A stretch of 64,000 nucleotides of DNA from an uncultured SAR116 cluster alpha proteobacterium (GCA_902522415.1 CABYVI010000003.1:5092-69091), one strand, 5' to 3'; positions 23,834-64,000 are shown, counted from the first letter of the stretch. The notes: generated from the sequence alone by a model not told the origin. Translations and numbers: made by a program.

Positions 23834-23834
23834 A

Positions 23835-25391: not shown

Positions 25392-25393
25392 TT

Positions 25394-27631: not shown

Positions 27632-27653
27632 ATAAATTATTTACATAATAATT

Positions 27654-27669
27654 TGCAAAAAAAATGCCA
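27654..27669 (-). promoter_or_regulatory. Sigma-54 promoter of fliD (minus strand)
   Basis: The reverse complement reads TGGCAT-TTTTT-TTGCA, about 23 nt upstream of the fliD ATG. Confidence 0.65.
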
Positions 27670-27692
27670 AAAATATCATATTTTATATGCAC

Positions 27693-27708
27693 AGGCATAG
27701 ATATTGCA
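27693..27708 (+). promoter_or_regulatory. Sigma-54-like promoter, divergent from the fliD promoter
   Basis: AGGCAT-AGATA-TTGCA (GG-N10-GC kept), 24 nt before ATG 27732. Confidence 0.55.
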
Positions 27709-27731
27709 GAAAAATTTTAAGGAGTTAAAAT

Positions 27732-28367
27732 ATGTTTAATCTATCGCCTCAATATAATTTGCTTTTAGATCAATATAGTTACATGGCAGAAAACGGATAC
27801 CATAGAACTGATGGTCAATTTGTAAAAAATGTATATTCAGATGCTGAGCCTTTGAAGTTTTCAGAGAGCATAAAGGAAATTGTTAAGTGTTTTAATTCAA
27901 AAAATGCTTTAGATTATGGTTCAGGTGGAACTAATTTAAACACTAAAATACTAAAAGAAGATATTAAGTTTATTGACTTCATAGGTCTAAAAAAAATTTA
28001 TTCTTATGAGCCTGCTAGAAAAAAAGGCAACCCTAAAAAATGTGATTTGGTTTTATGCTTTGATGTTCTTGAACATATCTTTATTAATGATATTCCGTGG
28101 GTTTTAAAAGAATTATTTGCAAATGCAAAACAATGTGTAATCATAAATGTTGCTTGCTATAAAGCTGCTGCACTTTTACCTAATGGAGAAAATGCACACA
28201 TAACAGTAAGACCTCCCCATTGGTGGTTAGGACAAATCGAGTGTATAAGCACATTGTATCCTGAAGTTTATTGGGCACTTTTTACTTCTCAAGGTCATCA
28301 GAATTTTGATTTTCTTGGTGTGCATAGAATGAAAGACAAAATAGATAGCAAAAAATTTGTCCAGTAA
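27732..28367 (+). CDS. Putative class I SAM-dependent methyltransferase (211 aa)
   Basis: Motif I-like LDYGSGGT, and CDLVLCFDVLEHI; sits in the flagellin-modification neighbourhood. Confidence 0.55.
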   Translation: MFNLSPQYNLLLDQYSYMAENGYHRTDGQFVKNVYSDAEPLKFSESIKEIVKCFNSKNALDYGSGGTNLNTKILKEDIKFIDFIGLKKIYSYEPARKKGNPKKCDLVLCFDVLEHIFINDIPWVLKELFANAKQCVIINVACYKAAALLPNGENAHITVRPPHWWLGQIECISTLYPEVYWALFTSQGHQNFDFLGVHRMKDKIDSKKFVQ

Positions 28368-28424
28368 AAAAAATATTAAAAATTCTTAAAAGTTTTATAC
28401 AAATCTCCGTTACTATATATGAGA

Positions 28425-28440
28425 CTATTTCGCTGACCTC
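28425..28440 (+). other. 16-nt sequence exactly complementary to the loop of sRNA copy 2, displayed in the hairpin GACTAT/ATAGTC
   Basis: CTATTTCGCTGACCTC is the reverse complement of GAGGTCAGCGAAATAG at 30448-30463. Confidence 0.8.
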
Positions 28441-28442
28441 AT

Positions 28443-28478
28443 AGTCCCTCCATATATTAATGGAGGGACTTTCACTTT
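28443..28478 (+). terminator. Probable intrinsic terminator of the 27732 transcript
   Basis: AGTCCCTCCA-TATATTAA-TGGAGGGACT followed by the T-rich TTCACTTT. Confidence 0.5.
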
Positions 28479-28494
28479 ATATTGTAATATGATT

Positions 28495-28510
28495 AGGCAT
28501 AAATATTGCA
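28495..28510 (+). promoter_or_regulatory. Sigma-54-like promoter upstream of the TPR gene at 28544
   Basis: AGGCAT-AAATA-TTGCA. Confidence 0.55.
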
Positions 28511-28543
28511 CATATCTATTGGTAAAACTTAGATGTGTGAAAA

Positions 28544-30163: not shown

Positions 30164-30172
30164 TTTGTTGTT

Positions 30173-30188
30173 TGGCATAAATATTGCT
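30173..30188 (+). promoter_or_regulatory. Sigma-54 promoter of sRNA copy 1
   Basis: TGGCAT-AAATA-TTGCT. Confidence 0.65.
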
Positions 30189-30197
30189 CAATATAAA

Positions 30198-30275
30198 TGT
30201 TCCTAGAGGTCAGCGAAAATAGCTAGGAACAATCTCCGATGGCGGTCTTGTCTTTAGTGGCAAGGCCGCTTTTTT
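30198..30275 (+). ncRNA. Candidate small RNA, copy 1 (about 78 nt)
   Basis: GTTCCTAG-AGGTCAGCGAAAATAG-CTAGGAAC hairpin, CAATCTCCGATG linker, terminator GCGGTCTTG...CAAGGCCGC plus T6. Confidence 0.6.
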
Positions 30276-30413
30276 AACATTATATCTAACTAGATTAATT
30301 TTATAAAACAGTTATTAATTTGAAGTAATTGTCAATACAAACTTAAGCACCTATACGATATATCTAGGCAATTATATGATATTTTTAATACTATTTTTTC
30401 AAGTCTTAAACTT

Positions 30414-30429
30414 TGGCATGACTATTGCA
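30414..30429 (+). promoter_or_regulatory. Sigma-54 promoter of sRNA copy 2
   Basis: TGGCAT-GACTA-TTGCA. Confidence 0.65.
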
Positions 30430-30439
30430 AATCATAAGT

Positions 30440-30524
30440 AGTTCCTAGAGGTCAGCGAAATAGCTAGGAACAATCTCCGATGGCGGTCTTGTTGATTTAA
30501 CTCTTCAAGACCGCTAATTTTTTT
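30440..30524 (+). ncRNA. Candidate small RNA, copy 2 (about 85 nt)
   Basis: Same hairpin (loop AGGTCAGCGAAATAG), same linker, terminator GCGGTCTTG...CAAGACCGC plus T7. Confidence 0.6.
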
Positions 30525-30536
30525 AATTTCATACTT

Positions 30537-30552
30537 TGGCATGACTATTGCA
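30537..30552 (+). promoter_or_regulatory. Sigma-54 promoter of sRNA copy 3
   Basis: TGGCAT-GACTA-TTGCA, identical to copy 2. Confidence 0.65.
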
Positions 30553-30562
30553 AATTATTAGT

Positions 30563-30648
30563 CAGTTCCTAGAGGTCTGCGAAAATAGCTAGGAACAATC
30601 TCCGATGGCGGTCTTGTTGATTTAACTCTTCAAGACCGCTAATTTTTT
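30563..30648 (+). ncRNA. Candidate small RNA, copy 3 (about 86 nt)
   Basis: Near-identical direct repeat of copy 2; loop variant AGGTCTGCGAAAATAG; same terminator plus T6. Confidence 0.6.
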
Positions 30649-30658
30649 GAGTTTAATT

Positions 30659-31039
30659 TTATGCTAATAAATTAACTTTTTTAGTAAATCTTGGTTCTTC
30701 AACAGACCAACTTGATATTCTTGAATATTTCGTTTGCGCAACATTATGAGTATACATAGGAGATGATAAAGATTTAGCCATAAGAAATGTTTCAGATGTA
30801 ACAGCTGAAGGTGCTCCATCAGGGTGAGAAATTCTATTCATAGAATATCTTTTCAAGTCCAAATTAGTTTTAGTGACTGCGCCAGGGTTAAAAACTCCAA
30901 CAGAAGTTTGTCTTTCACTTGGCATTAAATTTGCACTAATTCCAAGAAGTTGAGTGTTAGTTTGAGACAAATTGTTTCTAACATTAACGTTTCGGCTAAT
31001 ATTTGAGTTAGAAATATTGTTCAAAATTGGATTATCCAT
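30659..31039 (-). CDS. Hypothetical S/T/N-rich protein (126 aa), cysteine-free, probably disordered
   Basis: Intact ORF divergent from fliS; its composition resembles flagellar export substrates or regulators, but I find no diagnostic motif. Confidence 0.4.
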   Translation of the reverse strand: MDNPILNNISNSNISRNVNVRNNLSQTNTQLLGISANLMPSERQTSVGVFNPGAVTKTNLDLKRYSMNRISHPDGAPSAVTSETFLMAKSLSSPMYTHNVAQTKYSRISSWSVEEPRFTKKVNLLA

Positions 31040-31099
31040 TTTAGATTCTTAGCTTAAATATAAGTAAATATCAAGTTTAAAGACGAGGTAAATGGTATC

Positions 31100-31495
31100 A
31101 TGTCATATAATGTAGCTTCTGAAGCTTATAAACAAGCAGAAAATCTTGGGTTAGCAGAAGTAACTAATCCCCATGAAGTTGTCCAGAAATTATTTAATGA
31201 ACTTATAAAATCTATGAGTTTATTTGAAGAATCATTTAAGGATAAAACCCATTCCGAAACAAGGTCATCAAGCTTTGCACGATCTTTAACGATAATTTAT
31301 TCATTACAATCTAGCTTAGACTTCGAAAAAGGTGGTGAAATTTCTACCAATTTATTTCGAATCTACGAGTATTCAAGACAACAATTAATTTCAGATTTAA
31401 AAAATGCAAAAGCTGAAGGTGTGACAAATGCTATTCACATAATTAAAGAAATTGCTGGTGCATGGGATCAAATAGCAGATGAGGTAAAAAAATGA
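31100..31495 (+). CDS. fliS: Flagellin export chaperone FliS
   Basis: 131 aa; AYKQAE..., [19 protein letters not shown] and AGAWDQI match the FliS family. Confidence 0.9.
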
Positions 31496-31782
31496 AAAAT
31501 GAATATAATATAATTCTCGACCAATTAATGGAAAAAATATCAAAAGCAGTTGCTGAAGAACAATATGCAGAGGTTATTATTTACAATGAAGAACTCTGTA
31601 CTGCGGTTATGGAAATGACTGATAGTTGCTCAGAAGAAGACAAAGAAAGCTTATATAATCTAATTTCTGACGCAAGAGACGAAATTGATGGTTTAAAAGA
31701 CCAAATTATTGCAAGACAGAATAAATTATCAGCTGATACAAATAAATCTAATAAAGCTAAGATAAATTATAACGTCGCTTAA
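31492..31782 (+). CDS. Hypothetical acidic helical protein (96 aa) in the FliT-like position
   Basis: ATGA overlap with the fliS stop; helical and acidic; call rests on position only. Confidence 0.35.
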
Positions 31783-31786
31783 AAAA

Positions 31787-32908
31787 TTAATGATTAATTG
31801 AGAGTTTTTTCATTTTCTCAATTAATGTTGTTCTGTTTAGCCTTAAGCATTCAGATGCTTTTGTGATATGACCACTATTTTTTTCAATTGCAGCTTTGAT
31901 TAAAACTTCCTCTACATCTATTAAGTGCCTTCTTATATCAATGCTGTCATAGTATAAAAACCAATCACTATAGTGAGAAGGGTCAGGTAATGGAGGACTG
32001 TTTTCATTTTCTGCATCTTCCTCAATTTCAAAAGATATATTTGAAGTTGCTTCCCACATAGCATCTTTTTCAATTTGAGGATCAGGCACTTTAAGCCTGA
32101 GAAGATTTTCTAATACATTTTTACCATTAATTTTTTTATTAGGAAATAAAACTGCAGCCCTTTCAACAACATTTCTAAGTTCTCTGATGTTTCCAGGCCA
32201 ATTATATCTTCCCAATTCTCTAAAAGCAGTATCATCAAATTCAGGAATATTATCCCCCTGTTTTCTTAATTCTGACAACATAAATTCAACAATTACAGGT
32301 ATATCAACAATCCTTTCTGCAAGACTAGGCACAATGATTGGAAAAACATTTATTCTAAAAAATAAATCTGCTCTAAATTTTCCTTCATCTACATATTTAT
32401 CAATATTCTGATGTGTGGCACAAATTAACCTTAAATCAATTTTAATTTCTTTATCACCACCCACTCTTTGGATAGTTTTGTTTTCAAGTGCCCTTAGTAA
32501 TTTACTCTGCAGTGAAAGAGGCATGTCTCCAATTTCATCTAAAAATAATGTTCCACCACTTGATTGCTCAAAGCGCCCTGCCCGCGATTTATCAGCGCCT
32601 GTGAAGGCACCTTTCTCATGTCCAAATAACTCACTTTCAAGAAGTTCTGTTGGAATTGCTGCGCAATTTACTGAAATCAATGGTCCTTTTTTTCCAGACG
32701 CTTCGTGAATACCTTTTGCAACAAGTTCTTTGCCTGACCCAGTTGGACCTAAAATTAATGCTGAACTTCCTGTTGGCGCCACTACAGACATCAGACGTTT
32801 CAACTCACTTGCAGGTGCTGAAATTCCTGAGATAAGCTTGTTTATTGATAATGGTATTAAATTTGGATCTTTATTTAGCTTTGTCATAAATTTGTCATTA
32901 CTTAACAA
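31787..32908 (-). CDS. Sigma-54 enhancer-binding protein: AAA+ domain plus C-terminal Fis-type HTH, no receiver domain (FleQ/FlrA-like)
   Basis: Walker A GPTGSGKE, ESELFGHEKGAFTGA (GAFTGA loop), GGTLFLDEIGDM, WPGNIRELRNVVER; C-terminal HITKASECLRLNRTTLIEKMKKL; only about 45 aa precede the AAA+ domain. Confidence 0.85.
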   Translation of the reverse strand: MLSNDKFMTKLNKDPNLIPLSINKLISGISAPASELKRLMSVVAPTGSSALILGPTGSGKELVAKGIHEASGKKGPLISVNCAAIPTELLESELFGHEKGAFTGADKSRAGRFEQSSGGTLFLDEIGDMPLSLQSKLLRALENKTIQRVGGDKEIKIDLRLICATHQNIDKYVDEGKFRADLFFRINVFPIIVPSLAERIVDIPVIVEFMLSELRKQGDNIPEFDDTAFRELGRYNWPGNIRELRNVVERAAVLFPNKKINGKNVLENLLRLKVPDPQIEKDAMWEATSNISFEIEEDAENENSPPLPDPSHYSDWFLYYDSIDIRRHLIDVEEVLIKAAIEKNSGHITKASECLRLNRTTLIEKMKKLSINH

Positions 32909-36398: not shown

Positions 36399-37436
36399 AT
36401 GGCAGAAGCAGTTGAGAACAATGAAGAACAGGATGAATATTCCAAACTTACTGGTACTCAAAAATGTGCTATACTAATGATGCTTCTTGGTGAAGAAGAA
36501 GCCTCGGAGATACTAAGAAACTTAGGCCCTAAAGAAGTACAGCATTTAGGATCAGCTATGTACTCTGTTCAAGGCCTAGATCAAGTTACTGTTAATCGTG
36601 TTCTAGATGAATTTTTATCTATCATTAAAGCTCAAACAAGCTTGGGATTAGGTGCAGGCAATTATATCAAGAATGTCTTAACTAAAGCTTTAGGTGATGA
36701 TAAAGCGCAGTCTGTATTAAGTAGAATAACTCCCGTAAGCAGTGACAGGCCTATTGAAATACTTGATTGGATGGATGCTAGATCAATAGCTGAATTAATC
36801 TCTGATGAGCACCCACAAATTATATCTTTAGTAATTTCATATTTAGAATTTGGTTTAGCGGCAGATGTTTTAGGACTTCTACCACATAATTTACAACCTG
36901 ATATTATTAAACGAATTGCAACTCTTCAAACTGTTCAACCCGATGCGTTGGCAGAGTTAGAGAGGGTTATGCAAAGAAAGTTTAAAGATAATACATCTTT
37001 AAGAGCATCACAAGTTGGAGGTGTTAAAGCCGCTGCTAAGATCATGAATTTCACCAAGCAACAGATGGAAACTAGAATAATGAAATCTCTCAATAGAGAA
37101 GATAAAAATCTTATGCAACAAATTCAAGATAGTATGTTTGTCTTTGATAATCTAATTATGGCTGACGATAAATCATTACAAACACTTCTCAGAAACGTTG
37201 ACAATGAAATGCTAATTTTATCACTTAAAGGAGCAGATGAACCTTTAAGAGAGAAGATTTTTTCATGTATGTCAACAAGGGCTGCAGCGAATATTCAAGA
37301 CGAAATGGGTGCTATGGGTCCAGTAAGACTTACTGAAGTTCAAGAAGCACAAAAGCAAATAATTTCTGTTGCAAGAAGATTATCTGATGAAGGCACAATT
37401 GTGTTGGCAGGCAGAGGTGGCGATGATTTTGTTTAA
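36399..37436 (+). CDS. fliG: Flagellar motor switch protein FliG
   Basis: 345 aa; LTGTQKCAILMMLLGEEEASEILRNL, MFVFDNL, EAQKQIISVARRL. Confidence 0.95.
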   Translation: MAEAVENNEEQDEYSKLTGTQKCAILMMLLGEEEASEILRNLGPKEVQHLGSAMYSVQGLDQVTVNRVLDEFLSIIKAQTSLGLGAGNYIKNVLTKALGDDKAQSVLSRITPVSSDRPIEILDWMDARSIAELISDEHPQIISLVISYLEFGLAADVLGLLPHNLQPDIIKRIATLQTVQPDALAELERVMQRKFKDNTSLRASQVGGVKAAAKIMNFTKQQMETRIMKSLNREDKNLMQQIQDSMFVFDNLIMADDKSLQTLLRNVDNEMLILSLKGADEPLREKIFSCMSTRAAANIQDEMGAMGPVRLTEVQEAQKQIISVARRLSDEGTIVLAGRGGDDFV

Positions 37437-45256: not shown

Positions 45257-46083
45257 TGATAGATTTAAGTCTGCTAAATAATAATGTTAATGCATTTCCT
45301 GGATTATATTTGTCTAACATTATAAATTTACTCCCACTTTTTTTACTTGCTTCCATTAGAATTGGGGCATTTATCTTATCTGTACCTTTTTTTGGAATGA
45401 AAGGTGTGCCAACACCTCTAAGAATTGTTGTATCTTTCATACTCGGTTTAGCTGTTGTAAGTTTCGTGGGCCTTCCCTCAGAGGAATTACTGAATGATTT
45501 AAATTTTATTTTTATTGTTATGGTTGAGATTGCAGTTGGATTGACCGCAGGTCTAATTGTTACTATTTGGTTTGCTTCTGTTGCTCTTGCAGGAGAGAAA
45601 ATGGCGACTAGTGCAGGTTTAGGCTATGCAGCCCAAATAGACCCTTTAGCAGGAGGCCAGACCCCTGTTATAAGTCAGACTTTAAATTTATTTTTAATTG
45701 TACTTTTTGTGACCCTTGATGGTCACTTATTAATGTTAAGAGTGTTTTTTGAGAGTTATTCAATACTTCCTATTGGAGCAATGCCTCCCCCTTTTGTACT
45801 AATTGGTGCTGGAATAAAGGCGGCAGGATCTATGTTTATTGCTGCTTCTTTAATAATGCTTCCAGTAGTTGGAATAATTCTCATGATCAATGTTTCAGCT
45901 GGCATTATGACTCGCTCAGCTCCACAGTTAAATCTTTTTTCTTTTGTTTTTCCAGTGACCATATTAAGTGCTTTTGTAATTCTATATTTTTCAACTGGTA
46001 CTATGGCTCTAGCTTTTTCTGATTTAATTTTTTCTACAATTGAAGCTCTTGAAGACTTAATGATAGGTATAAATGATGGCTGA
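45256..46083 (+). CDS. fliR: Flagellar export apparatus protein FliR
   Basis: 275 aa polytopic protein between fliQ and flhB. Confidence 0.85.
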   Translation: MIDLSLLNNNVNAFPGLYLSNIINLLPLFLLASIRIGAFILSVPFFGMKGVPTPLRIVVSFILGLAVVSFVGLPSEELLNDLNFIFIVMVEIAVGLTAGLIVTIWFASVALAGEKMATSAGLGYAAQIDPLAGGQTPVISQTLNLFLIVLFVTLDGHLLMLRVFFESYSILPIGAMPPPFVLIGAGIKAAGSMFIAASLIMLPVVGIILMINVSAGIMTRSAPQLNLFSFVFPVTILSAFVILYFSTGTMALAFSDLIFSTIEALEDLMIGINDG

Positions 46084-47242
46084 ACAATCTGAAGATGGTC
46101 AGGAAAAAACCGAAGAACCCACTGCCAGAAAATTGGAAAAGGCAGCGGAGGAAGGTCAAGTATTATCATCAAAAGAAATGTTTGTTTTTACAGGTATTAT
46201 AGGAATGTTTGGCTTAATTTATATCCTACCCTATTTTTCACAAATATTACTTTCCTATTGGTCGATGTTTTTTGACTGGTCAGATATCGTAAATGATAAA
46301 AAATCAATTTTAGATATACTATTCTATGCTTTACGTTTCTTTACTTTAATTATTTTCTTTATTTCTATACCAATGTTTATCATAGTTCTTCTTACACAAA
46401 TATCAGTTGGTGGAATTAATTTTGCTCCTAAAGCAATCCAATTCAAAGGAAAAAAAATAAATCCGGTTGAAGGTTTTAAAAGAATGTTTTCCCAAAAAGC
46501 ATTGGCAGAATTGGTAAAAGCTATTCTGAAAGTTTTACTATTATTTGGTCTAACTGCTTTGGTAATATATGACAGATTAGATGATATGCTTCAGTTGACA
46601 GAAAGAGAGCTTTCCCAAGCAATTATAGTTATGGGTCAGTCTTTTCCTAGGTTACTATTTGTTTTGTTAATTGGTTTAGCAATAATAGCAGCAATTGATT
46701 ACTTTTGGCAGAGACATATATTTATTCAAGGCTTAAGAATGACCAAGCAGGAGATTAAAGATGAATTCAAACAGACAGAGGGGTCGCCAGAAGTTAAAGC
46801 AAAAATACGAAGAAAACAGATGGAAGCATCGGCCAATACGGCTAAGCAAGCTGCGGCTTTAGATGATGTAAAAAATGCTACAGCAGTCATTACAAACCCA
46901 ACACATTTTGCTGTTGCACTTAAATATGAAGTAGGCACCAAAGGTGCACCTACTATTTTAGCATTAGGAAAAGGACCCATGGCTAAAAATATAATAGAAA
47001 GAGCAGAAAATGCTAAAATAACCCTTTTTAGATCACCTTTGCTTGCAAGAGCCTTATTTTTTACAGGCGAAATAGGACAAGAAATAAATGATAAGCTTTA
47101 TACAGCAGTAGCAGTAGCCTTAGCATATATTTATAAAATAGATAGAGGAGAATTTGCTTCGGAACCCGAAATAAATGTTCCTCTAGATATGCAATTTAAT
47201 GAGCAAGGCGAATTACTCGAAGGATCAAAAAATGCTCAATAG
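46073..47242 (+). CDS. flhB: Flagellar export switch protein FlhB
   Basis: EKTEEPTARKLEKAAEEGQV, KQTEGSPEVKAKIRRKQ, autocleavage site NPTHFAVAL. Confidence 0.95.
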   Translation: MMAEQSEDGQEKTEEPTARKLEKAAEEGQVLSSKEMFVFTGIIGMFGLIYILPYFSQILLSYWSMFFDWSDIVNDKKSILDILFYALRFFTLIIFFISIPMFIIVLLTQISVGGINFAPKAIQFKGKKINPVEGFKRMFSQKALAELVKAILKVLLLFGLTALVIYDRLDDMLQLTERELSQAIIVMGQSFPRLLFVLLIGLAIIAAIDYFWQRHIFIQGLRMTKQEIKDEFKQTEGSPEVKAKIRRKQMEASANTAKQAAALDDVKNATAVITNPTHFAVALKYEVGTKGAPTILALGKGPMAKNIIERAENAKITLFRSPLLARALFFTGEIGQEINDKLYTAVAVALAYIYKIDRGEFASEPEINVPLDMQFNEQGELLEGSKNAQ

Positions 47243-58984: not shown

Positions 58985-59506
58985 TTAAATTGGGTTTACT
59001 GTTATAGAGTATTCCTTCAAAACCTTCTTGATTTGAGGAATACCTTTTTCATCAAATTGAATGGAGTTTAATCTCTTTAGATACCAGATGGATAATGCTG
59101 TGGCTTCTGCTGTGCATCGTGTTTTAACTATGCCACTGCCATCAAAGTCTTCAAAGACACATTCTTCATCACGATATTTTATCCAATCTCTCTGAACGTT
59201 TCTTATTCTCTTTTTCTGCTTGGGAAACACAGCGTATCTTTCCATCACATCTTTATAAATTCTATTGAGTTCTGAATCCATTGAAACATTAATTCTATGG
59301 GCACAGACAACTCCATCACCTGTTTTTGGAGCAACACCTCTTTTAAACATAACATTACATTCAGGGTGCTTTTCATTGGTCATGTCCATAACCATTCTGG
59401 TTATTTCACCATCTGATACTTTGGCATTTGTCTGGTAGGAAAAGAATAGTGAGAAAATTAAGAGTGCTGGGAAATAAATTGAATATTCTTTGATTTTACT
59501 GAGCAT
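58985..59506 (-). CDS. Secreted DUF1311/LprI-like (lysozyme-inhibitor-like) protein
   Basis: Signal peptide; LNRIYKDVMERY ... VQRDWIKYRDEEC pattern. Confidence 0.6.
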   Translation of the reverse strand: MLSKIKEYSIYFPALLIFSLFFSYQTNAKVSDGEITRMVMDMTNEKHPECNVMFKRGVAPKTGDGVVCAHRINVSMDSELNRIYKDVMERYAVFPKQKKRIRNVQRDWIKYRDEECVFEDFDGSGIVKTRCTAEATALSIWYLKRLNSIQFDEKGIPQIKKVLKEYSITVNPI

Positions 59507-59665
59507 GAATACCTCCTTGTTGAAACAGTGATACTCTTATAAGAAGGTATGTTGTCTTAAAGGTGATTTAATAATGACCAAAAGAAGGTTTGTTTAAAGA
59601 ATTATTCTCAATTTGAACATAATGTTATTATATTTAAAGAATGTTTGCTTTAGGAAGTTAGAGTT

Positions 59666-60208
59666 TTGAGAATGAAGAAGTATTATTTAATATTGTTTAT
59701 TGTTTTTGGCTTCGTATTAAACTCGTCATATGCCTCTGAAAAAATAACTGAAATTAACTTTAATGACGGAGCAAATTATTATGAATCCCAAGCAATAGCT
59801 AAGGGTTTAAATAAAGAAATTATTTATGCATTTCATACTTGGCTTGAAGTAAGTCATTTTAATTATGGATGCTTATCAGAAGATAATTGCAGACAAAACA
59901 TTAAGTATGAAATGAGTTTTGAAACATATTCAGCAGACTTAAATTCAGATGGAGTTGATGAAGTATTTGTATATTTGAAAGGACCGGGAATATGTGGTTC
60001 TGGAGGGTGTACTACATACATTCTTCAAAAAAAAAGTGAAGATAAATGGATGATAATTGGGGAATATTTTCCAAATTATGGAACAAGTATTTCTTCAAAA
60101 AAACATGAAGGTTTTTCAATTATTTATCATAAAGGGAAATTTGGAAAATATGAGTGTTTTTATCAAGCATGGGAAAAAAATTTATATAGCTGTTATGAAA
60201 AAAAATAA
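59666..60208 (+). CDS. Secreted Cys-containing hypothetical protein
   Basis: Signal peptide; DLNSDGVDEVFVYLKGPGICGSGGCTTYIL. Confidence 0.5.
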   Translation: MRMKKYYLILFIVFGFVLNSSYASEKITEINFNDGANYYESQAIAKGLNKEIIYAFHTWLEVSHFNYGCLSEDNCRQNIKYEMSFETYSADLNSDGVDEVFVYLKGPGICGSGGCTTYILQKKSEDKWMIIGEYFPNYGTSISSKKHEGFSIIYHKGKFGKYECFYQAWEKNLYSCYEKK

Positions 60209-60339: not shown

Positions 60340-61215
60340 ATGATGGAATTATTAATAGTAATTGCTGGAATTATTGGACTTGTCTGGTTTTTTAACAGAG
60401 ACACATCAGACAAAAATATAGACTATACTCCACCCAGAAATAGATCTTCATCAAAAATATTTAAATATAAAGAGTTCTCTAAAAAGTCAAAGCCAAAAAT
60501 TAAATTTAATAACTCGAATCATAAAATAAAAACTGAAAATAGTAAAATTATTAAATGCAAAAGCTGCCAACAAAAACTTAGAGTAGGAAAAATTCCAGCT
60601 GGGAAAAGTGGGGTTGTTACTTGCCCATCTTGCAACTTTAAAAATAAGATTACAGTTAAAAAAAATAAAACAACAGAAAATATTTTAAATTTTGACGGCA
60701 TTAATGATGCTTATACTGGAATACCAATTAATCCCTCAAAACAACTATATAACTGCGGTTGCGGCGTTTTTTATCACGCTGAAAGTTATGAGGTTATTGT
60801 TCAAGAAAATTTTTCACAATGTGTTGCTTGTTCTAAAACAAATATATCAGCTTTTCATTCAAAAGAAGATGTTTCAATCAATATCTCTACTCCAAGAAAC
60901 CACAAAGCTAGTGTTATAACTCTAGTCAATTATAGAAATTATTTAAATAAGGTTGTTACATTTGAAGGAGAGGTAAAAAAGATTTTACAAAGCAGATCAG
61001 GAACAAGTTATGCCGTTATGTTTGAAAATAAAGGTTGGACAAAAGGTTTCAAACTAGTATTTTTTAGGGATGCAGTAAGCCAATATGGAGGCTCTAGATA
61101 TATTTATTCATTAGAAAGAAAAAAGTTAAAAGTTAGAGGTTTATTAATTAAACATAAAACTTTTGGATATGAGATTATAATAAATGAAAAATCAATGATC
61201 ATGAGTGTAGAATAA
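60340..61215 (+). CDS. Membrane-anchored protein with two Cys4 zinc-ribbon-like motifs and a C-terminal OB-fold-like domain; first gene of the Ubl operon
   Basis: N-terminal TM segment; CKSCQQKLRV...VTCPSCNF; CGC...CVAC; VVTFEGEVKKIL...YAVMFEN...LKVRGLL. Confidence 0.6.
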   Translation: MMELLIVIAGIIGLVWFFNRDTSDKNIDYTPPRNRSSSKIFKYKEFSKKSKPKIKFNNSNHKIKTENSKIIKCKSCQQKLRVGKIPAGKSGVVTCPSCNFKNKITVKKNKTTENILNFDGINDAYTGIPINPSKQLYNCGCGVFYHAESYEVIVQENFSQCVACSKTNISAFHSKEDVSINISTPRNHKASVITLVNYRNYLNKVVTFEGEVKKILQSRSGTSYAVMFENKGWTKGFKLVFFRDAVSQYGGSRYIYSLERKKLKVRGLLIKHKTFGYEIIINEKSMIMSVE

Positions 61216-61416
61216 ATGAAATGGAAAAACATAGATTTAAAGAATAAAAAAACAACTAAATATTCTGATGAAGTTTCAGTAGATTATCCTAAAACTAAAG
61301 AAGATTATCATAAGAGTGTAAAAAAATATCACCCCGATATAAATGACCCTTTTTTCAAAAATCGTAATACAAAAAAAATGCAAAAGTTAAATCAAAATAA
61401 AGACAAGTTAAAATAA
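61216..61416 (+). CDS. Mini J-domain-like protein (66 aa) with an HPD motif
   Basis: EDYHKSVKKYHPDIN; abuts both neighbouring genes with no gap. Confidence 0.45.
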   Translation: MKWKNIDLKNKKTTKYSDEVSVDYPKTKEDYHKSVKKYHPDINDPFFKNRNTKKMQKLNQNKDKLK

Positions 61417-62556
61417 GTGGAAAAATTCGCTCGAATATCAGCAATCAATGGATATGATAGAGATTTTATTTCTTCAATAAAAATAATTGTTATAGGCGCT
61501 GGTGCCATAGGAAATGAGATAGTAAAAAATCTTGCTCTTTTTGGTGTTAAAGAAATATTAATTTTTGATTTTGATAAAATTGAGATTCATAATCTTACAA
61601 GAAGTATTTTCTTCAGGGAAGAAGATATAGGAAGATTTAAAGCTGAAACAGTTGCTAAAAGAGCTTCAACTGTTTCTCCAGAAACAAATATAATAGCTAT
61701 TAATGAAAACTTTTGGGATTACTTAACATTTGAAATGTTATCACAATATTCAGCTGTAATATGTGCTGTGGATAATTTTGAAGCGAGAATTCGTTTAAAT
61801 ACATTATGTTCATTTTCAAAAAAACTATTTATAAATACTGGCATTGACCATACATTTGGTGCTGTTGAAGCTTTCCCCTTTGATCAAAATATTAATAACA
61901 CTGTAGCATGTTATGAATGTGGAATACCTTCTTCTGTTTATCTTAGAATGTCAGAAAGATATTCTTGTGGGTGGATTAGAAAAAAATACTTAAAAGAAAA
62001 GGTTATACCAACAACCACAATCACCTCTAGTATTACCTCTGCACATGCAATTTCAGTTTTATTTGAATATTTAAATCCAGACCTCCAAATTGAAGGTTTT
62101 GATTATTCTAAATCAGTAAAAAAACTAATCAATACAAAAACCCTTTCAGTGTCAATAACTGATATCCCCATAAAAGAACTATGTCCTTCCACATTTCATA
62201 ATACTCAAGATACAGTATTCTCAAAATCAAAAAGAAATATGAATAATCTGTTCTCTCAAAATCAAAGTTTAATTGACGCTTCTCAAAACATTAATATTGA
62301 GTTTAGTGAACCCATAATTTTATACACCAAAGAAAAGGATGGTTCTAAAAAATATTTCTTTGATAGAGCTGAAAATTACGATGAAACAATATTAATAAAA
62401 AATGGAGTTCGCTCTTTAGATGCAAAAATTATACAAAATATAAATTTCAAAACATTAATAGATGAATATAATAAATATGAAATACCTTCTAAGTTCATAC
62501 TTTGTAATTTAGATAATTATAAAAAAGCAATTATTGTGGAGATGATAAATGAGTGA
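61417..62556 (+). CDS. E1-like ubiquitin-activating enzyme (ThiF/MoeB/HesA fold); GTG start
   Basis: IIVIGAGAIGNEIVKNLALFGVKEILIFDFDKIEIHNLTRSIFF, CAVDNFEAR, CYECG. Confidence 0.85.
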   Translation: MEKFARISAINGYDRDFISSIKIIVIGAGAIGNEIVKNLALFGVKEILIFDFDKIEIHNLTRSIFFREEDIGRFKAETVAKRASTVSPETNIIAINENFWDYLTFEMLSQYSAVICAVDNFEARIRLNTLCSFSKKLFINTGIDHTFGAVEAFPFDQNINNTVACYECGIPSSVYLRMSERYSCGWIRKKYLKEKVIPTTTITSSITSAHAISVLFEYLNPDLQIEGFDYSKSVKKLINTKTLSVSITDIPIKELCPSTFHNTQDTVFSKSKRNMNNLFSQNQSLIDASQNINIEFSEPIILYTKEKDGSKKYFFDRAENYDETILIKNGVRSLDAKIIQNINFKTLIDEYNKYEIPSKFILCNLDNYKKAIIVEMINE

Positions 62557-62845
62557 TGATATTATAGAAATTGATCAAGGTGGAGATAACAATATTTCTG
62601 TTATTTTAAGAACAGCTGATCAAACAAGAAAAGCTGAAGTAGAGGTTTCAAAAGAAGACTTAATTAGTGAAATAATTGCGAGTGCAATAGAAAATTGGCA
62701 ACTAGATAAAGAAGTTGATTATTCAATTTCAAATGTTACGCAAAGCATTTCTTTAGATCCAGACCAAACCATTGGTGGAACAAATACCAGCAATGGGGAT
62801 ACTTTAGAAATTCAACCTGTATTGGTTGCTGGTTATGGGTGGTAG
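62549..62845 (+). CDS. Ubiquitin-like (beta-grasp) protein, 98 aa, C-terminus ...LVAGYGW
   Basis: Right size and position between E1 and E2; C-terminal GDTLEIQPVLVAG resembles a Ubl tail; overlaps both neighbours. Confidence 0.6.
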   Translation: MSDDIIEIDQGGDNNISVILRTADQTRKAEVEVSKEDLISEIIASAIENWQLDKEVDYSISNVTQSISLDPDQTIGGTNTSNGDTLEIQPVLVAGYGW

Positions 62846-63455
62846 AGCATCAAGAATAGAAAATGATTTAAAAAAAGTAAAAGAACTTTGCCTAAAGAGC
62901 AATGGGGCTATCAATATTATATCTCAAAATAATGAAGAAATTGAATTAGAATTTAAATATAGAACGATTGAAAATTCATCTGGGAAAATAATTAATAAAT
63001 CGATTGTTGAAATTGAGTTTGGACCTAAATACCCTTTTATTGAGCCCAAAGCATTTTTTAAATCTGAAATTTTTCATCCCAATGTTTATACTTCAGGACA
63101 AATATGTTTCGGGATAAAATGGGTTGGTTCACAAACATTAGATTTTTTGGTTGAAAGAATTGCAAATATAATAATATTTGACTCAAACATTCTTAACCTA
63201 GATTCTCCAGCTAATTCAACTGCTGTTAATTGGTATAAAAAAACAATTAGAAACAACCCAGATATTTTTCCTACTGATACATTTGTAAAACAGACACAAA
63301 CTAAAAAAAGCACTATAAAATGGAAAAATGTGAGTAACAACAATTTTGTTGTCAAAAATTGCCCGAGTTGTAATCAAGCATTAAGGTTGCCCACTGGAAA
63401 AAAACTCAAGGTAACATGTCGAAAATGTAAACAGATTTTTGAGACAAAGACATAA
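62835..63455 (+). CDS. E2-like ubiquitin-conjugating enzyme with a C-terminal zinc ribbon (the ORF track starts at TTG 62826)
   Basis: UBC active-site signature FHPNVYTSGQICFG; C-terminal CPSCNQALRL...VTCRKCKQIF. Confidence 0.8.
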   Translation: MGGRASRIENDLKKVKELCLKSNGAINIISQNNEEIELEFKYRTIENSSGKIINKSIVEIEFGPKYPFIEPKAFFKSEIFHPNVYTSGQICFGIKWVGSQTLDFLVERIANIIIFDSNILNLDSPANSTAVNWYKKTIRNNPDIFPTDTFVKQTQTKKSTIKWKNVSNNNFVVKNCPSCNQALRLPTGKKLKVTCRKCKQIFETKT

Positions 63456-63457
63456 TA

Positions 63458-64000
63458 ATGAAGTGGAATTCAGTAAAGCCGGATATTAAAATACACAGTC
63501 TTCATTCTGTTATAAATGAAATTGGCTTTATGTATGGAATCGCATTTATTAATACCAATGAAAATTACCTATTACTATGTTTTCAGAGTTGTTGGGATAA
63601 AATCATCAAACATCTCAAACCACATAAAGTGGAGATGGGTGGATTAATAATTGGCAAAATACATGAAGATCAAAGTTTAGATAAAACAATTGTTCTTTTG
63701 GAGGATATTGTTGTTTCAAATGATCACAAAAGTACATCTGTTTCTCTTGAAATGGGTGCAGGTATTTGGTCAGAAGCCAATAGCAATAAAAATAATGACC
63801 AAGCAGTTGTAGGTTGGTATCACTCTCATCCAAATCTAGGAGCATTTTTTAGTGGTACCGATGTCAAAAATCAAAAAGCTAATTTTAATTCCGCTTTTCA
63901 TTTTGGCTTAGTCATAGACCCTTTTAGAGATGAGTATGCGATATTTAGAGGCGCAGAATCAAAACCTATTAATTTATCAAACTTTTTTATTGGAGACAAT
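63458..64000 (+). CDS. JAB/JAMM (MPN+) metalloisopeptidase, 3' end beyond the window
   Basis: My own translation of an open frame running to nt 64000: ...KVEMGGLIIGK...VVGWYHSHPNLGAFFSGTDV... (E, HxH, S..D JAMM residues). Confidence 0.85.
   Translation, partial: MKWNSVKPDIKIHSLHSVINEIGFMYGIAFINTNENYLLLCFQSCWDKIIKHLKPHKVEMGGLIIGKIHEDQSLDKTIVLLEDIVVSNDHKSTSVSLEMGAGIWSEANSNKNNDQAVVGWYHSHPNLGAFFSGTDVKNQKANFNSAFHFGLVIDPFRDEYAIFRGAESKPINLSNFFIGDN

What the first reader, a model, noticed from the sequence alone, without database searches (positions are those of the whole stretch)
61417..64000. Complete bacterial ubiquitination-like cassette: E1, single-domain Ubl, E2, JAB peptidase
The four genes overlap or abut, with spacing from -20 to +2 nt.
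- The E1 has a ThiF/MoeB-type nucleotide-binding fold (VIGAGAIGNE..., DFDKIEIHNLTR) and a CYECG motif.
- The Ubl is a 98-aa putative beta-grasp protein.
- The E2 has the eukaryote-like UBC signature FHPNVYTSGQICF.
- The JAB peptidase has an intact JAMM site (E...HSHP...S..D).

This belongs to the class predicted by comparative genomics and recently shown to act as an anti-phage Bil (ISG15-like) system that conjugates a Ubl to phage tail proteins.

This example differs in three ways. The gene order is E1-Ubl-E2-JAB. The Ubl is short and single-domain. The E2 carries a C-terminal zinc ribbon. The cassette sits in an apparently accessory region of a streamlined, AT-rich genome.
Basis: partly seen in the sequence, partly recalled or inferred. 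Interest (0 to 1): 0.85.

Follow-up and report, generated by a model that had tools for sequence, protein, structure and literature searches.

The report
Bacterial ubiquitin-like tagging cassette, six genes
A marine SAR116 bacterium carries a rare six-gene cassette that looks like a complete, eukaryote-style ubiquitin system: activating enzyme, tag, UBC-type carrier enzyme, a predicted membrane-anchored RING-like ligase, a trimming peptidase and a chaperone-recruiting J-domain protein. It is not the known Bil anti-phage system, and I found no experimental study of it in the literature I could search.

Summary
All the quoted motifs are present.

The Bil assignment fails. The E2 is a classical UBC (Pfam UQ_con, HPN plus Cys) with no PADLOC BilB hit. 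The E1 has a single adenylation domain, not the Bil IAD-AAD-CYS layout. The gene order also differs.

The unit is larger than reported. Two abutting upstream genes belong to it:
- 60340-61215: TM helix, RING/U-box-like zinc domain (predicted structure) and OB fold.
- 61216-61416: a small J-domain protein.

The core E1-Ubl-E2-JAB, in this order, recurs in about 45 species genomes and one predicted prophage, with unrelated flanks. The full six-gene form is in 15 of those genomes and in the prophage.

Most family Ubls end exactly in ...VLVAG. The window copy has a 3-residue tail (YGW) that would have to be trimmed.

In the SAR116 population the cassette proteins are singletons, while neighbouring genes have tens to hundreds of near-identical copies.

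Most likely this is a mobile E1-E2-E3-DUB conjugation system with Hsp70 coupling. A role in conflict or defence is inferred, not shown. Comparative genomics probably predicted the family in 2011. It is absent from PADLOC.

The parts
60340..61215 (+). Putative membrane-anchored E3 or adaptor (291 aa). It has an N-terminal TM helix (res 3-18, nt 60346-60393) and a disordered linker. The linker carries a window-specific inserted CxxC...CxxC zinc ribbon (res 73-98, nt 60556-60633). Then come a RING/U-box-like domain (res 123-164, nt 60706-60831) and a C-terminal OB fold (res 192-291, nt 60913-61212).
   Evidence: It is conserved immediately upstream of the E1 in related loci. The family has 320+ clusters, none with a Pfam domain. 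The full-length AF2 model has pLDDT 79.6, above 90 over most of res 120-291. Foldseek places the OB with the anticodon-binding OB of Asp/Lys/Asn-tRNA synthetases (E 2e-5). The domain-only model has pLDDT 82, and its top 50 PDB matches are, as far as their titles identify them, RING or U-box domains, most of them from E3 ligases (prob mostly 0.8-0.99, TM 0.44-0.58). Invariant residues follow the cross-brace spacing D123-x2-T126-x12-C139-x-C141-x4-H146-x2-S149-x11-C161-x2-C164.
61216..61416 (+). Small stand-alone J-domain protein (66 aa; HPD at res 39-41, nt 61330-61338). It is shorter than its ~80-aa homologues because the helix I region is reduced.
   Evidence: Window copy: Pfam DnaJ E=0.0047, 17.4 bits, below the cutoff. 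All 14 of 14 family members hit DnaJ, best 1.7e-13. The family profile hits DnaJ J-domain structures at 1e-9. The YHPD motif is invariant. The gene abuts both neighbours with a 0-nt gap.
61417..62556 (+). E1-like activating enzyme (379 aa) with a single ThiF-type adenylation domain (res ~15-245). Features: GAGAIGNE (nt 61495-61518), VDNFEAR (61768-61788), zinc-site CYEC (61909-61920), and candidate catalytic Cys184 in the invariant RYSCG (61957-61971). A C-terminal domain of ~120 aa has an unknown fold.
   Evidence: Pfam ThiF 138 bits. NCBIfam ThiF and MoeB models score far below their cutoffs (94 against 275). The best PDB relatives are eukaryotic Uba1/Uba6/Uba7 active adenylation domains (131-118 bits), ahead of SUMO E1, MccB, MoeB, ThiF and Uba5. 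Conserved residues come from the family alignment.
62549..62845 (+). Ubiquitin-like modifier (98 aa), a single beta-grasp domain. The conserved C-terminus is ...QPVLVAG (Gly95, nt 62831-62833), followed here by a 3-residue tail YGW (62834-62842).
   Evidence: In a family alignment of 28 sequences, 21 end exactly at ...LVAG. The window (YGW) and 5 others carry 1-4 extra residues after it, and one Oscillatoriales copy ends differently. The family profile hits ubiquitin variants, ubiquitin, DSK2, SAMP2 and other Ubl structures (best E 0.0026). There are 1247+ homologous clusters; a few have a precomputed YukD or Rad60-SLD Pfam hit or are named 'Ubiquitin-like domain-containing protein'.
62835..63455 (+). 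UBC-type E2 (206 aa from ATG 62835; an alternative TTG start lies at 62826). It has the HPN motif (nt 63075-63083) and catalytic Cys91 (within QICFG, 63099-63113). A C-terminal MJ0042-type zinc ribbon follows (res 176-198, nt 63360-63428).
   Evidence: Pfam UQ_con 45 bits, above the cutoff of 27. All 26 family representatives hit UQ_con, and no Prok-E2 family is among their hits. The best PDB hits are E2 ubiquitin-conjugating enzymes, mostly eukaryotic. P82, C91, G93 and W96 are invariant and N83 nearly invariant. There is no PADLOC hit.
63458..64000 (+). JAB/JAMM metallopeptidase (181 aa, runs off the window end; about 5-15 aa missing). The active site is E59 (nt 63629-63643 region) and H122-S-H124...S132..D135 (63821-63862).
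   Evidence: Pfam Prok-JAB 44 bits and JAB 38.5 bits. PADLOC generic JAB hit at 1e-8. E, HSHP, S and D are conserved across the family.

Best explanation
The window ends in a six-gene, probably co-transcribed cassette for a ubiquitin-like protein-conjugation system of the eukaryote/Caldiarchaeum type. It is distinct from Bil, Bub and CBASS.

Proposed mechanism (sequence features are shown; activities are inferred):
1. The JAB peptidase trims the YGW tail of the 98-aa Ubl, exposing Gly95 of the conserved ...VLVAG end.
2. The E1 adenylates Gly95. By analogy with MoeB/ThiF/Uba5 it probably acts as a homodimer, because it has no inactive adenylation domain. It takes the Ubl as a thioester on Cys184 (RYSCG, in the crossover-loop position).
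3. The Ubl passes to Cys91 of the UBC-type E2, with the HPN motif supplying the oxyanion-hole Asn.
4. The upstream protein is anchored in the inner membrane by one TM helix. Its RING/U-box-like domain acts as the E3 or adaptor that docks E2~Ubl. Its OB fold selects the target or senses a ligand, possibly nucleic acid.
5. The J-domain protein recruits DnaK to the complex or to tagged substrates.
6. The JAB also reverses conjugation.

Biologically, the cassette behaves as a horizontally mobile accessory module. I infer a conflict, defence or stress role from its sporadic distribution and from one prophage-cargo instance next to a restriction-modification system.
For: Domain identities and motifs:
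- Pfam calls for all four core genes.
- PDB sequence relatives of the E2 and E1.
- Ubl family profile against PDB.
- Motif coordinates.

Conserved cassette:
- The core E1-Ubl-E2-JAB, in this order, is in about 45 GTDB species genomes. They span Alpha-, Beta- and Gammaproteobacteria, Nitrospirales and Desulfobacterales, and their flanks are unrelated.
- The full six-gene form (TM-RING-OB, J, E1, Ubl, E2, JAB) is in 15 of those genomes.

Ubl C-terminus:
- 21 of 28 aligned sequences end exactly at ...VLVAG. The window and 5 others carry 1-4 extra residues after it, and one Oscillatoriales copy ends differently.

E3 candidate:
- AF2 models.
- Foldseek top 50 for the zinc domain are, as far as their titles identify them, RING or U-box domains, most of them from E3 ligases.
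- The OB matches aaRS anticodon-binding OBs.
- Invariant residues follow RING/PHD cross-brace spacing with one zinc site retained.

J domain:
- 14 of 14 homologues hit DnaJ.
- The J gene co-occurs strictly with the OB-containing long form of the E3: 15 of 15 loci, against none of the loci with a short form or no E3.

Accessory status:
- Cassette proteins are singleton clusters. Neighbouring SAR116 genes mostly have 23-258 members at 90% identity or more.

Mobility and defence hints:
- The complete cassette lies inside a predicted prophage. On one side are terminase, portal, UmuD-like protein and DNA polymerase; on the other are a restriction endonuclease/methyltransferase and holin/endolysin.
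- Cassette GC there is 38%, against 45-47% in the flanks.
- Some flanks carry QatA, PDC-S11, HEC-04, PifA/AbiLi-like proteins, integrases and a transposase.
Against: - No activity has been measured for any component.
- The RING-like call rests on a predicted structure with weak Foldseek E-values (0.1-0.4). Sequence-profile hits to PHD and RanBP2 fingers are not significant (E 0.5-0.9).
- The domain keeps only one zinc site, so E2 binding is unproven.
- The fold of the E1 C-terminal domain is unknown (no PDB profile hit), so how the E2 is recruited is open.
- The window's J protein is truncated and below the Pfam cutoff.
- The window's Ubl tail may simply be a lost stop codon (GGT TAT GGG TGG TAG). 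This copy could therefore be impaired.
- Most flanking genes in related loci are housekeeping, and the defence association was not quantified.
- The E2 found no match in the plasmid or GenBank-phage collections.
- The promoter scan is no better than chance, and no + strand terminator-like site lies in the scanned region. Co-transcription is therefore inferred from spacing only.
Confidence: 0.72

Rival explanations
1. It is a Bil (bacterial ISG15-like) anti-phage system, differing only in gene order and Ubl size. On this view it tags phage tail proteins without an E3.
For: - It has the same four functional roles: E1, E2, Ubl and JAB.
- PADLOC gives a weak BilD hit for the E1 (29 bits).
- Single-beta-grasp Ubls are common in Type II Bil (78%; PMC11601603).
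- JAB pre-processing of the Ubl C-terminus is documented for Bil (PMC10557695), and the family Ubl tails suggest it here too.
Against: - There are no PADLOC BilA, BilB or BilC hits.
- The E2 is UQ_con in 26 of 26 family members, with no Prok-E2 family among the hits. It has no CEHH motif.
- The E1 lacks the N-terminal IAD (Pfam14459 in Type II BilD, per PMC10557695; no such hit). Its closest relatives are eukaryotic Uba1-type domains.
- The gene order is conserved as E1-Ubl-E2-JAB, against Ubl-E2-DUB-E1 in Bil (PMC10557695).
- A conserved RING-like partner is present, whereas Bil operons encode no E3 (PMC11601596).
Confidence: 0.05
2. It is a sulfur-carrier or cofactor system of the MoaD/ThiS-MoeB/ThiF type. 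The 'Ubl' carries a thiocarboxylate, and the JAB acts like Mec+/CysO-type processing enzymes.
For: - The E1 adenylation domain matches the ThiF and MoeB models.
- JAB plus Ubl plus E1 triads exist in sulfur-transfer pathways (established knowledge; Iyer et al. 2006).
Against: - The ThiF and MoeB equivalog scores are far below their cutoffs: 94 against 275, and 70 against 377.
- A catalytic-Cys UBC E2 is present in every locus.
- No biosynthetic gene is conserved on either flank in 45 loci.
- The E1 has no rhodanese domain.
- The Ubl ends in Ala-Gly, not Gly-Gly.
Confidence: 0.03
3. It is a selfish 'protein-level restriction-modification' or addiction module, or a phage- or MGE-encoded counter-defence or host-takeover tool, rather than a host defence system. 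It tags and untags host proteins for the benefit of the mobile element.
For: - It pairs a modifier with a de-modifier and is highly mobile. This is the argument made for this class of operon in PMC3417536.
- One complete copy is carried as cargo in a predicted prophage.
- It is a singleton in its SAR116 population.
Against: - In the prophage it sits beside a restriction-modification system, a typical position for defence cargo.
- Most copies are chromosomal with ordinary flanks.
- The E2 found no match in 50,697 GenBank phage records or 72,556 plasmids.
Confidence: 0.15
4. It is a housekeeping-like membrane protein quality-control pathway. The membrane RING-like E3 tags damaged envelope or nascent proteins, and the J protein hands them to DnaK. 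No link to phages is involved.
For: - The E3 candidate is TM-anchored.
- The J-domain protein co-occurs strictly with the long form of the E3.
- Most flanks are housekeeping genes.
Against: - The distribution is very patchy: about 45 of 185,579 species representatives by the pattern used.
- It is a singleton within the SAR116 population.
- It shows a GC mismatch with its prophage host.
All three argue against a core cellular function.
Confidence: 0.1

Closest known systems
Eukaryote-like E1/E2/RING-E3/Ub/Rpn11-JAB operon of Caldiarchaeum subterraneum, and the bacterial E1-E2-RING-JAB-Ubl operons predicted by Burroughs, Iyer & Aravind 2011. I cite these from memory and through PMC10557695, PMC3417536 and PMC11354881; the 2011 paper could not be read here.
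   Same: - Separate genes for an E1, a UBC-type E2 with HPN plus catalytic Cys, a small RING-type partner, a single-domain Ubl ending in Gly, and a JAB peptidase.
- The E1 and E2 are closest in sequence to eukaryotic enzymes.
- A review (PMC11354881, section 3.8) states that bacterial RING domains lacking two of the four zinc-ligand pairs have been described. That matches the pattern seen here.
- Some family Ubls are annotated YukD-like. As I recall it, the abstract of the 2011 paper discusses that type of Ubl.
   Different: - The RING-like protein here is membrane-anchored.
- In the long form it is fused to an OB fold and paired with a stand-alone J-domain gene.
- The E2 usually carries a C-terminal zinc ribbon.
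- The E1 has the catalytic-Cys candidate in a short crossover loop rather than a separate Cys domain, and has no demonstrated UFD.
- The Ubl ends in Ala-Gly.
- I could not verify whether this exact six-gene architecture was described in 2011.
Type I/II Bil (BilABCD) anti-phage systems
   Same: - E1, E2, Ubl and JAB are encoded as separate genes.
- The Ubl C-terminus is probably pre-processed by the JAB.
- The distribution is sparse and accessory.
   Different: - Gene order differs.
- The Bil E1 is IAD-AAD-CYS, whereas this one has a single adenylation domain.
- The Bil E2 is Prok-E2/CEHH, whereas this one is UQ_con with HPN.
- Bil has no E3 and no J-domain protein.
- There are no PADLOC BilA, BilB or BilC hits.
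Type I/II Bub (6E/DUF6527) operons
   Same: A bacterial Ubl conjugation pathway with an E1, an E2, a Ubl and a peptidase.
   Different: - Bub uses fused proteins (Ubl-E2, JAB-E1 or E2-E1) and oxyester chemistry (E1 Tyr, E2 Ser).
- Bub has a DUF6527 serine protease (PMC11601596).
- Here all the genes are separate, both candidate catalytic residues are Cys, and no DUF6527 gene is conserved.
Type II CBASS Cap2/Cap3
   Same: - E1 adenylation domain: the PADLOC 'E1-E2' models hit residues ~18-134 at up to 62 bits.
- A JAB peptidase partner.
   Different: - Cap2 is an E2-E1 fusion resembling ATG7/ATG10, and it conjugates a CD-NTase rather than a Ubl.
- There is no CD-NTase or effector here.
MoeB/MoaD and ThiF/ThiS sulfur-carrier pairs
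   Same: - The E1 adenylation fold with its CxxC zinc site.
- A beta-grasp partner ending in Gly.
   Different: - Those pathways have no E2, RING or J partner, and here no biosynthetic genes are conserved alongside.
- NCBIfam equivalog scores are far below their cutoffs.

Membership tests
Bil (BilABCD, Type I/II) | [quoted passage not shown] In Type II BilD the N-terminal part is annotated Pfam14459 (PMC10557695). | tested here: not met
   The ThiF domain spans residues 15-242 of 379, with no N-terminal domain and no PF14459 hit. The PADLOC BilD hit is only 29 bits, over profile positions 211-319 of 453.
Bil (BilABCD, Type I/II) | E2 (BilB) of the prokaryotic E2 / CEHH type. | tested here: not met
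   The E2 has no PADLOC hit. Its only non-zinc-ribbon Pfam hit is UQ_con. All 26 relatives hit UQ_con, with no Prok-E2 family among their hits. The sequence after Cys91 (CFGIKWVGSQ) lacks the C-x5-E-x-H-x4-H pattern.
Bil (BilABCD, Type I/II) | Gene order Ubl-E2-DUB-E1. | tested here: not met
   The order is E1-Ubl-E2-JAB here and in about 45 related loci.
Bil (BilABCD, Type I/II) | JAB/JAMM peptidase and a Ubl with a C-terminal Gly that is exposed by processing. | tested here: met
   The JAMM motif is intact. The family Ubl ends in ...VLVAG, with optional tails of 1-4 residues. Processing itself was not tested.
Bil (BilABCD, Type I/II) | [quoted passage not shown] | not testable with these tools
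   This needs phage challenge and mass spectrometry.
Eukaryote/Caldiarchaeum-like E1-E2-RING-Ubl-JAB systems | UBC-fold E2 with the HPN motif and a catalytic Cys. | tested here: met
   UQ_con scores 45 bits, above the cutoff of 27. P82 and C91 are invariant and N83 nearly invariant in the family. The best PDB hits are E2 ubiquitin-conjugating enzymes, mostly eukaryotic.
Eukaryote/Caldiarchaeum-like E1-E2-RING-Ubl-JAB systems | E1 adenylation domain with a catalytic Cys, closest to Uba1-type enzymes. | tested here: inconclusive
   Sequence affinity to the Uba1/6/7 active adenylation domains is shown (131 bits). Cys184 (RYSCG) is invariant, but its catalytic role and position in the crossover loop are inferred. 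There is no separate Cys domain, and no UFD was detected.
Eukaryote/Caldiarchaeum-like E1-E2-RING-Ubl-JAB systems | RING-type E3 encoded in the operon. | tested here: inconclusive
   The predicted structure of residues 112-182 gives only RING or U-box domains, as far as the titles identify them, in the Foldseek top 50 (prob mostly 0.8-0.99, E 0.1-0.4). The cross-brace spacing is present with one zinc site retained. Sequence profiles are not significant. No activity data exist.
Eukaryote/Caldiarchaeum-like E1-E2-RING-Ubl-JAB systems | Single beta-grasp Ubl with a C-terminal Gly. | tested here: met
   The family profile hits ubiquitin and Ubl structures almost exclusively (best E 0.0026). A terminal Gly is conserved. 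The fold was not modelled here.
Bub (6E/DUF6527) | DUF6527 serine protease (BubE), fused Ubl-E2 / JAB-E1 / E2-E1 proteins, and Ser/Tyr oxyester catalysis. | tested here: not met
   All the genes are separate. The E2 catalytic position is Cys. No further gene is conserved next to the cassette. The sequence downstream of nt 64000 in this genome was not seen.
Type II CBASS (Cap2/Cap3) | E2-E1 fusion Cap2 together with a CD-NTase and an effector. | tested here: not met
   The E1 hits the PADLOC E1-E2 models only over the adenylation fold. The E2 is a separate UBC-type protein. There is no CD-NTase in the window flank or in related loci.
MoeB/ThiF sulfur-carrier activating enzymes | Scores above the NCBIfam equivalog cutoffs, with biosynthetic partner genes nearby. 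| tested here: not met
   TIGR02356 scores 94 against a cutoff of 275. TIGR02355 scores 70 against 377. No thiamine, molybdopterin or cysteine biosynthesis genes are conserved nearby.
J-domain (DnaJ/Hsp40) proteins | J-domain fold with the HPD motif. | tested here: met
   HPD is invariant. All 14 family members hit Pfam DnaJ (best 1.7e-13). The PDB profile hits J-domain structures at 1e-9. The window copy itself is below the Pfam cutoff (17.4 against 27.8 bits) and is shortened at the N-terminus.

The most novel reading that the evidence does not exclude
This family is a bona fide bacterial E1-E2-E3 cascade. A membrane-tethered RING/U-box-like ligase with a single zinc site uses an OB fold to sense an invader-derived ligand at the inner membrane, for example incoming phage nucleic acid or a nucleic-acid-bound protein. 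It then directs a UBC-type E2 to tag targets with a ubiquitin-like protein, and a dedicated J-domain protein couples tagging to DnaK. That would make it a new anti-phage or stress mechanism. It would also be the closest bacterial counterpart of eukaryotic RING-dependent ubiquitination and of ubiquitin-chaperone coupling.
Probability: 0.3. Interest if true: 0.85.

Novelty: new variant of a known kind. Interest (0 to 1): 0.68.

Why it matters
The bacterial ubiquitin-like conjugation systems characterised so far (Type II CBASS, Bil, Bub) use diverged E2s and have no E3. This cassette family instead combines a classical UBC-type E2, an E1 closest to eukaryotic Uba1-type domains, a predicted RING/U-box-like partner and a J-domain co-chaperone.

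If it is active, it would show that RING-assisted ubiquitination and its link to Hsp70 exist in ordinary Proteobacteria. That bears on whether the eukaryotic ubiquitin system has bacterial as well as archaeal roots.

It would also add an unlisted candidate to the catalogue of mobile defence or conflict systems, since it is absent from PADLOC. Cultivable carriers exist (Vibrio bivalvicida, Photobacterium lipolyticum, Pseudomonas neuropathica, Bradyrhizobium oligotrophicum), so the question is directly testable.

Tried and rejected
- **Retrieving sequence beyond nt 64000.** Three exact look-ups with the look-up of encoding contigs (Ubl, E2, methyltransferase) found no record. The 70,711-bp source contig is known only from cluster metadata.
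- **Word-index homologue search with the E2.** It returned only the E2 itself. The exhaustive HMMER search was needed to find the family.
- **First attempt at search for related loci with 26 sequences.** It failed for lack of a conserved stretch. A 6-sequence alignment worked.
- **Reading Burroughs et al. 2011 and 2012.** Neither is held, so the statement that the family was predicted there rests on memory and secondary citations.
- **Sequence-profile support for the RING-like domain.** Only insignificant PHD, RanBP2 and C1 hits appeared. The call therefore rests on the predicted structure and on ligand spacing.
- **Plasmid and GenBank-phage collections.** The E2 found no match.
- **Promoter and terminator scan.** Counts matched the shuffled expectation.
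- **Literature search for an experimental study of this architecture.** None was found.
- **Rejected: Bil membership, sulfur-carrier pathway, giant-virus or eukaryotic origin.** The IMG/VR giant-virus E2 hits are short matches at 33-37% identity, with no cassette.

Full report
**1. Observation**

ORF listing and translation confirm four intact + strand genes at the end of the window:
- E1: 61417-62556, 379 aa, GTG start.
- Ubl: 62549-62845, 98 aa.
- E2: 62835-63455, 206 aa. An upstream TTG at 62826 would give 209 aa, but the public gene call is the 206-aa form.
- JAB: from 63458 to the window end, 181 aa.

Overlaps and gaps are -8, -11 (or -20) and +2 nt.

Pfam gives ThiF 138 bits, UQ_con 45 bits (cutoff 27), Prok-JAB 44 bits and JAB 38.5 bits. 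The Ubl alone is marginal (Rad60-SLD E=0.05).

**2. The unit is six genes, not four**

Two further genes abut the E1 with 0-nt gaps: 60340-61215 (291 aa) and 61216-61416 (66 aa).

An exhaustive HMMER search with the E2 found 602 relatives, 15 of them below 1e-30. An alignment shows an invariant Pro82 of the HPN motif (Asn83 nearly invariant) and an invariant Cys91. A C-terminal CxxC...CxxC ribbon is present in 17 of the 26 representatives.

A scan of one genome per GTDB species returned 47 loci. The hosts include:
- Vibrio, Photobacterium, Pseudomonas, Sphingobium and Novosphingobium.
- Cupriavidus, Bradyrhizobium and Pseudooceanicola.
- Nitrospirales and Desulfobacterales.
- Many Burkholderiales MAGs, and Porticoccaceae.

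tblastn with the six window proteins, plus ORF clustering, shows the same order everywhere, with no gene conserved beyond it. The order is [TM-zinc-finger-OB protein]-[~80-aa protein]-E1-Ubl-E2-JAB.

Three variants exist:
- Long form with the OB fold plus the small gene: 15 loci.
- Short form with a TM helix and zinc finger only, and no small gene: 12-14 loci, mainly Burkholderiales.
- Bare E1-Ubl-E2-JAB: 12 loci. The Porticoccaceae E2 in this group lacks the ribbon.

**3. The components**

*E1.* It has a single adenylation domain starting at residue ~15.
- Conserved features are GxGAxGNE, VDNFEAR, a CYEC zinc-site motif, and an invariant RYSCG whose Cys184 is the candidate catalytic residue.
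- By profile it is closest to the active adenylation domains of eukaryotic Uba1/Uba6/Uba7 (131-118 bits).
- These lead SUMO E1 (102), MccB (96), NEDD8 E1 (95), MoeB (91), ThiF (80) and Uba5 (76).
- NCBIfam ThiF and MoeB equivalogs are far below their cutoffs.
- The ~120-aa C-terminal domain gave no PDB profile hit.

*Ubl.* In a 28-sequence alignment, 21 sequences end exactly in ...E[VI]QP[VI]LVAG. Five others carry 1-4 extra residues after it (R, WC, VGGR, C, CKSA or Q), and one Oscillatoriales copy ends differently.
- The window has YGW. At the DNA level the tail reads GGT TAT GGG TGG TAG, which is compatible with a mutated stop codon.
- The family profile hits ubiquitin variants, ubiquitin, DSK2, SAMP2 and other 'ubiquitin-like protein' structures almost exclusively (best E 0.0026).
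- At least 1247 clusters of relatives exist. A few are annotated YukD or Rad60-SLD.

*E2.* All 26 of 26 representatives hit UQ_con, no Prok-E2 family is among their hits, and 12 hit the MJ0042-type Zn_ribbon_4. The best PDB matches are E2 ubiquitin-conjugating enzymes, mostly eukaryotic.

*JAB.* E, HSHP, S and D are conserved. Full length is ~185-195 aa.

*Small protein.* All 14 of 14 family members hit Pfam DnaJ (best 1.7e-13). The profile hits J-domain structures at 1e-9, and YHPD is invariant. The window copy is shortened at the N-terminus and falls below the Pfam cutoff.

*291-aa protein.* The family has 320+ clusters and no Pfam domain. Sources name members 'hypothetical' or 'OB-fold nucleic acid binding domain-containing protein'.
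- AF2 with a 51-sequence alignment gives a TM helix (3-18) and a disordered linker. A confident zinc domain (~120-172) and an OB fold (~190-291) follow.
- Foldseek places the OB with the anticodon-binding OB of Asp/Lys/Asn-tRNA synthetases (E 2e-5).
- The invariant residues of the zinc domain follow RING/PHD cross-brace spacing: D123-x2-T126-x12-C139-x(1-2)-C-x4-H146-x2-S149-x11-C161-x2-C164.
- In that pattern the second zinc site is all-Cys and the first is replaced by polar residues, as in U-box and SP-RING domains.
- A domain-only model (pLDDT 82) returned only RING or U-box domains among its top 50 PDB matches, as far as their titles identify them, most of them from E3 ligases. Examples are TRAF6, Pirh2, the LubX U-box, TRIM21, RNF125, RNF38, EL5, Ring1b and RNF8.
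- Those matches have prob mostly 0.8-0.99, TM 0.44-0.58 and rmsd mostly 2-3 A over ~55 columns, but weak E-values of 0.1-0.4.
- Sequence profiles alone are not significant.
- A review states that bacterial RINGs lacking two ligand pairs have been described (PMC11354881, section 3.8).
- Unlike the 13 aligned full-length homologues, the window protein has an inserted zinc ribbon (res 73-98). It resembles the E2 C-terminal ribbon.

**4. Host and context**

Cluster look-ups identify the host as a SAR116 cluster bacterium and the source as a 70,711-bp NCBI contig.
- Neighbouring genes have many near-identical copies. Clusters at 90% identity or more hold 23-258 members. The genes are FlgL, flagellins, FliG, a DMT permease, a methyltransferase, a PNP-family phosphorylase and an amidohydrolase.
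- ORF 58985-59506 has 3 members.
- All five cassette proteins that could be looked up are singletons. The JAB is cut by the window end, so it could not be looked up.
- The accessory stretch therefore begins around 59.0-60.3 kb and runs off the window.

No tRNA or Rfam element is in the window. The E2 found no match in the plasmid or GenBank phage collections.

IMG/VR holds one complete six-gene copy (L048) inside a predicted prophage.
- It lies between terminase, portal, UmuD-like protein and DNA polymerase on one side.
- On the other side are a restriction endonuclease/methyltransferase and holin/endolysin.
- Cassette GC is 38%, against 45-47% in the flanks.

Among 125 ORFs flanking 38 loci, a few are strong PADLOC hits. 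These include QatA at 3e-204, PDC-S11, HEC-04, and PifA-, AbiLi- and AriA/PtuA-like proteins. There are also two integrases and a transposase. The rest is ordinary metabolism. I could not quantify enrichment.

**5. Comparison with known systems**

*Bil* is defined by Ubl-E2-DUB-E1 order, an IAD-AAD-CYS E1 (N-terminal Pfam14459 in Type II), a Prok-E2/CEHH E2, and no E3 (PMC10557695, PMC11601596, PMC11601603).
- Three of these features were tested here and not met.
- Only the JAB and the Gly-terminated Ubl are shared.

*Bub* (fusions, DUF6527 protease, oxyester chemistry) and *CBASS Cap2/Cap3* (E2-E1 fusion, CD-NTase) also fail.

The best fit is the eukaryote/Caldiarchaeum-like class of E1-E2-RING-Ubl-JAB operons.
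- PMC3417536 attributes such mobile E2/E3/JAB operons to Burroughs et al. 2011.
- I could not read that paper. I therefore cannot say whether the TM-RING-OB plus J-domain architecture was described there.
- I found no experimental work on it, and PADLOC has no model for the E2, the Ubl, the RING-OB protein or the J protein.

**6. Mechanism and verdict**

Shown:
- Gene content, order, motifs and conservation.
- Accessory status in the SAR116 population.
- One prophage-cargo instance.

Inferred:
- JAB trimming to Gly95.
- Adenylation and a thioester on E1 Cys184.
- Transfer to E2 Cys91.
- E3 or adaptor function of the membrane RING-like/OB protein.
- DnaK recruitment by the J protein.
- A conflict or defence role.

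The strict co-occurrence of the J gene with the OB-containing form (15 of 15 against 0 elsewhere) suggests that the two act together.

Caveats for this particular copy are the Ubl tail, the shortened J protein, and an E1 whose second zinc-ligand pair is C...H rather than CxxC.

What is there is a distinct, widespread, apparently uncharacterised variant of bacterial ubiquitin-like conjugation systems, with a probable E3 and a chaperone link.

Noticed in passing
window 60556-60633 (res 73-98 of the 291-aa protein) versus 63360-63428 (E2 C-terminus): Unlike the 13 aligned full-length homologues, the window's RING-OB protein has an inserted CxxC...CxxC zinc ribbon. Its sequence resembles the zinc ribbon at the end of the E2 proteins: tblastn of residues ~41-119 hits the E2 3' ends in other loci at up to 48% identity. 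This looks like a domain copied from the E2 into the putative E3.
   Followed up: partly
window 62831-62845: The Ubl tail reads GGT TAT GGG TGG TAG. In most homologues the stop codon directly follows the Gly codon. TAT could therefore be a mutated TAA or TAG stop, and the E2 ATG (62835) lies inside the tail. This copy may depend on JAB trimming, or it may be impaired.
   Followed up: partly
L048 (IMGVR_UViG_2521172724_000002) 5553-9193: A complete six-gene cassette is carried as low-GC cargo (38%, against 45-47% in the flanks) in a predicted prophage. One side holds terminase, portal, UmuD-like protein and DNA polymerase. The other holds a restriction endonuclease/methyltransferase pair followed by holin and endolysin.
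   Followed up: yes
L046 (Oscillatoriales cyanobacterium MAG) 5223-8646: A divergent cyanobacterial variant has two tandem Ubl genes that do not end in the family's ...VLVAG motif. It also has two tandem E2 genes and a longer JAB protein (322 aa).
   Followed up: no
L014, L017, L018, L025, L027, L034, L040, L043 (Burkholderiales and other MAGs), gene upstream of the E1: Here the putative E3 is short (119-156 aa): a TM helix, a linker and the RING-like domain only. There is no OB fold and no J-domain gene. The J gene occurs only with the OB-containing long form.
   Followed up: partly
window 20001-32000: GC content drops from ~37% to 26-31% inside what appears to be a flagellar gene region. FlgL at 10631-11917, flagellin-like ORFs at 12025-13527 and 17714-20122, and FliG at 36399-37436 were named from the annotations of near-identical cluster members. 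This may be a variable island within the flagellar cluster, for example for flagellin modification.
   Followed up: no
window 4541-10621: A very large ORF (2026 aa) lies just upstream of the gene whose cluster members are named FlgL (10631-11917). It was not examined.
   Followed up: no
window 58985-60208 and 46073-47242: The LprI-like ORF on the minus strand (58985-59506) has only 3 near-identical relatives. The exact sequence of the cysteine-rich ORF with a hydrophobic N-terminus (59666-60208) was not found in the collection. The first, at least, probably marks the left edge of the strain-specific island. ORF 46073-47242 (389 aa) is also a singleton among otherwise common neighbours.
   Followed up: partly
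window 61417-62556, E1 residues ~256-262 and ~300-330: Most homologous E1s have a second CxxC after the adenylation domain, and many have an extra CxxC...CxxC ribbon in the C-terminal domain. The window E1 has CPSTFH (C...H) at the first site. Like four of the 19 homologues aligned with it, it lacks the ribbon.
   Followed up: no
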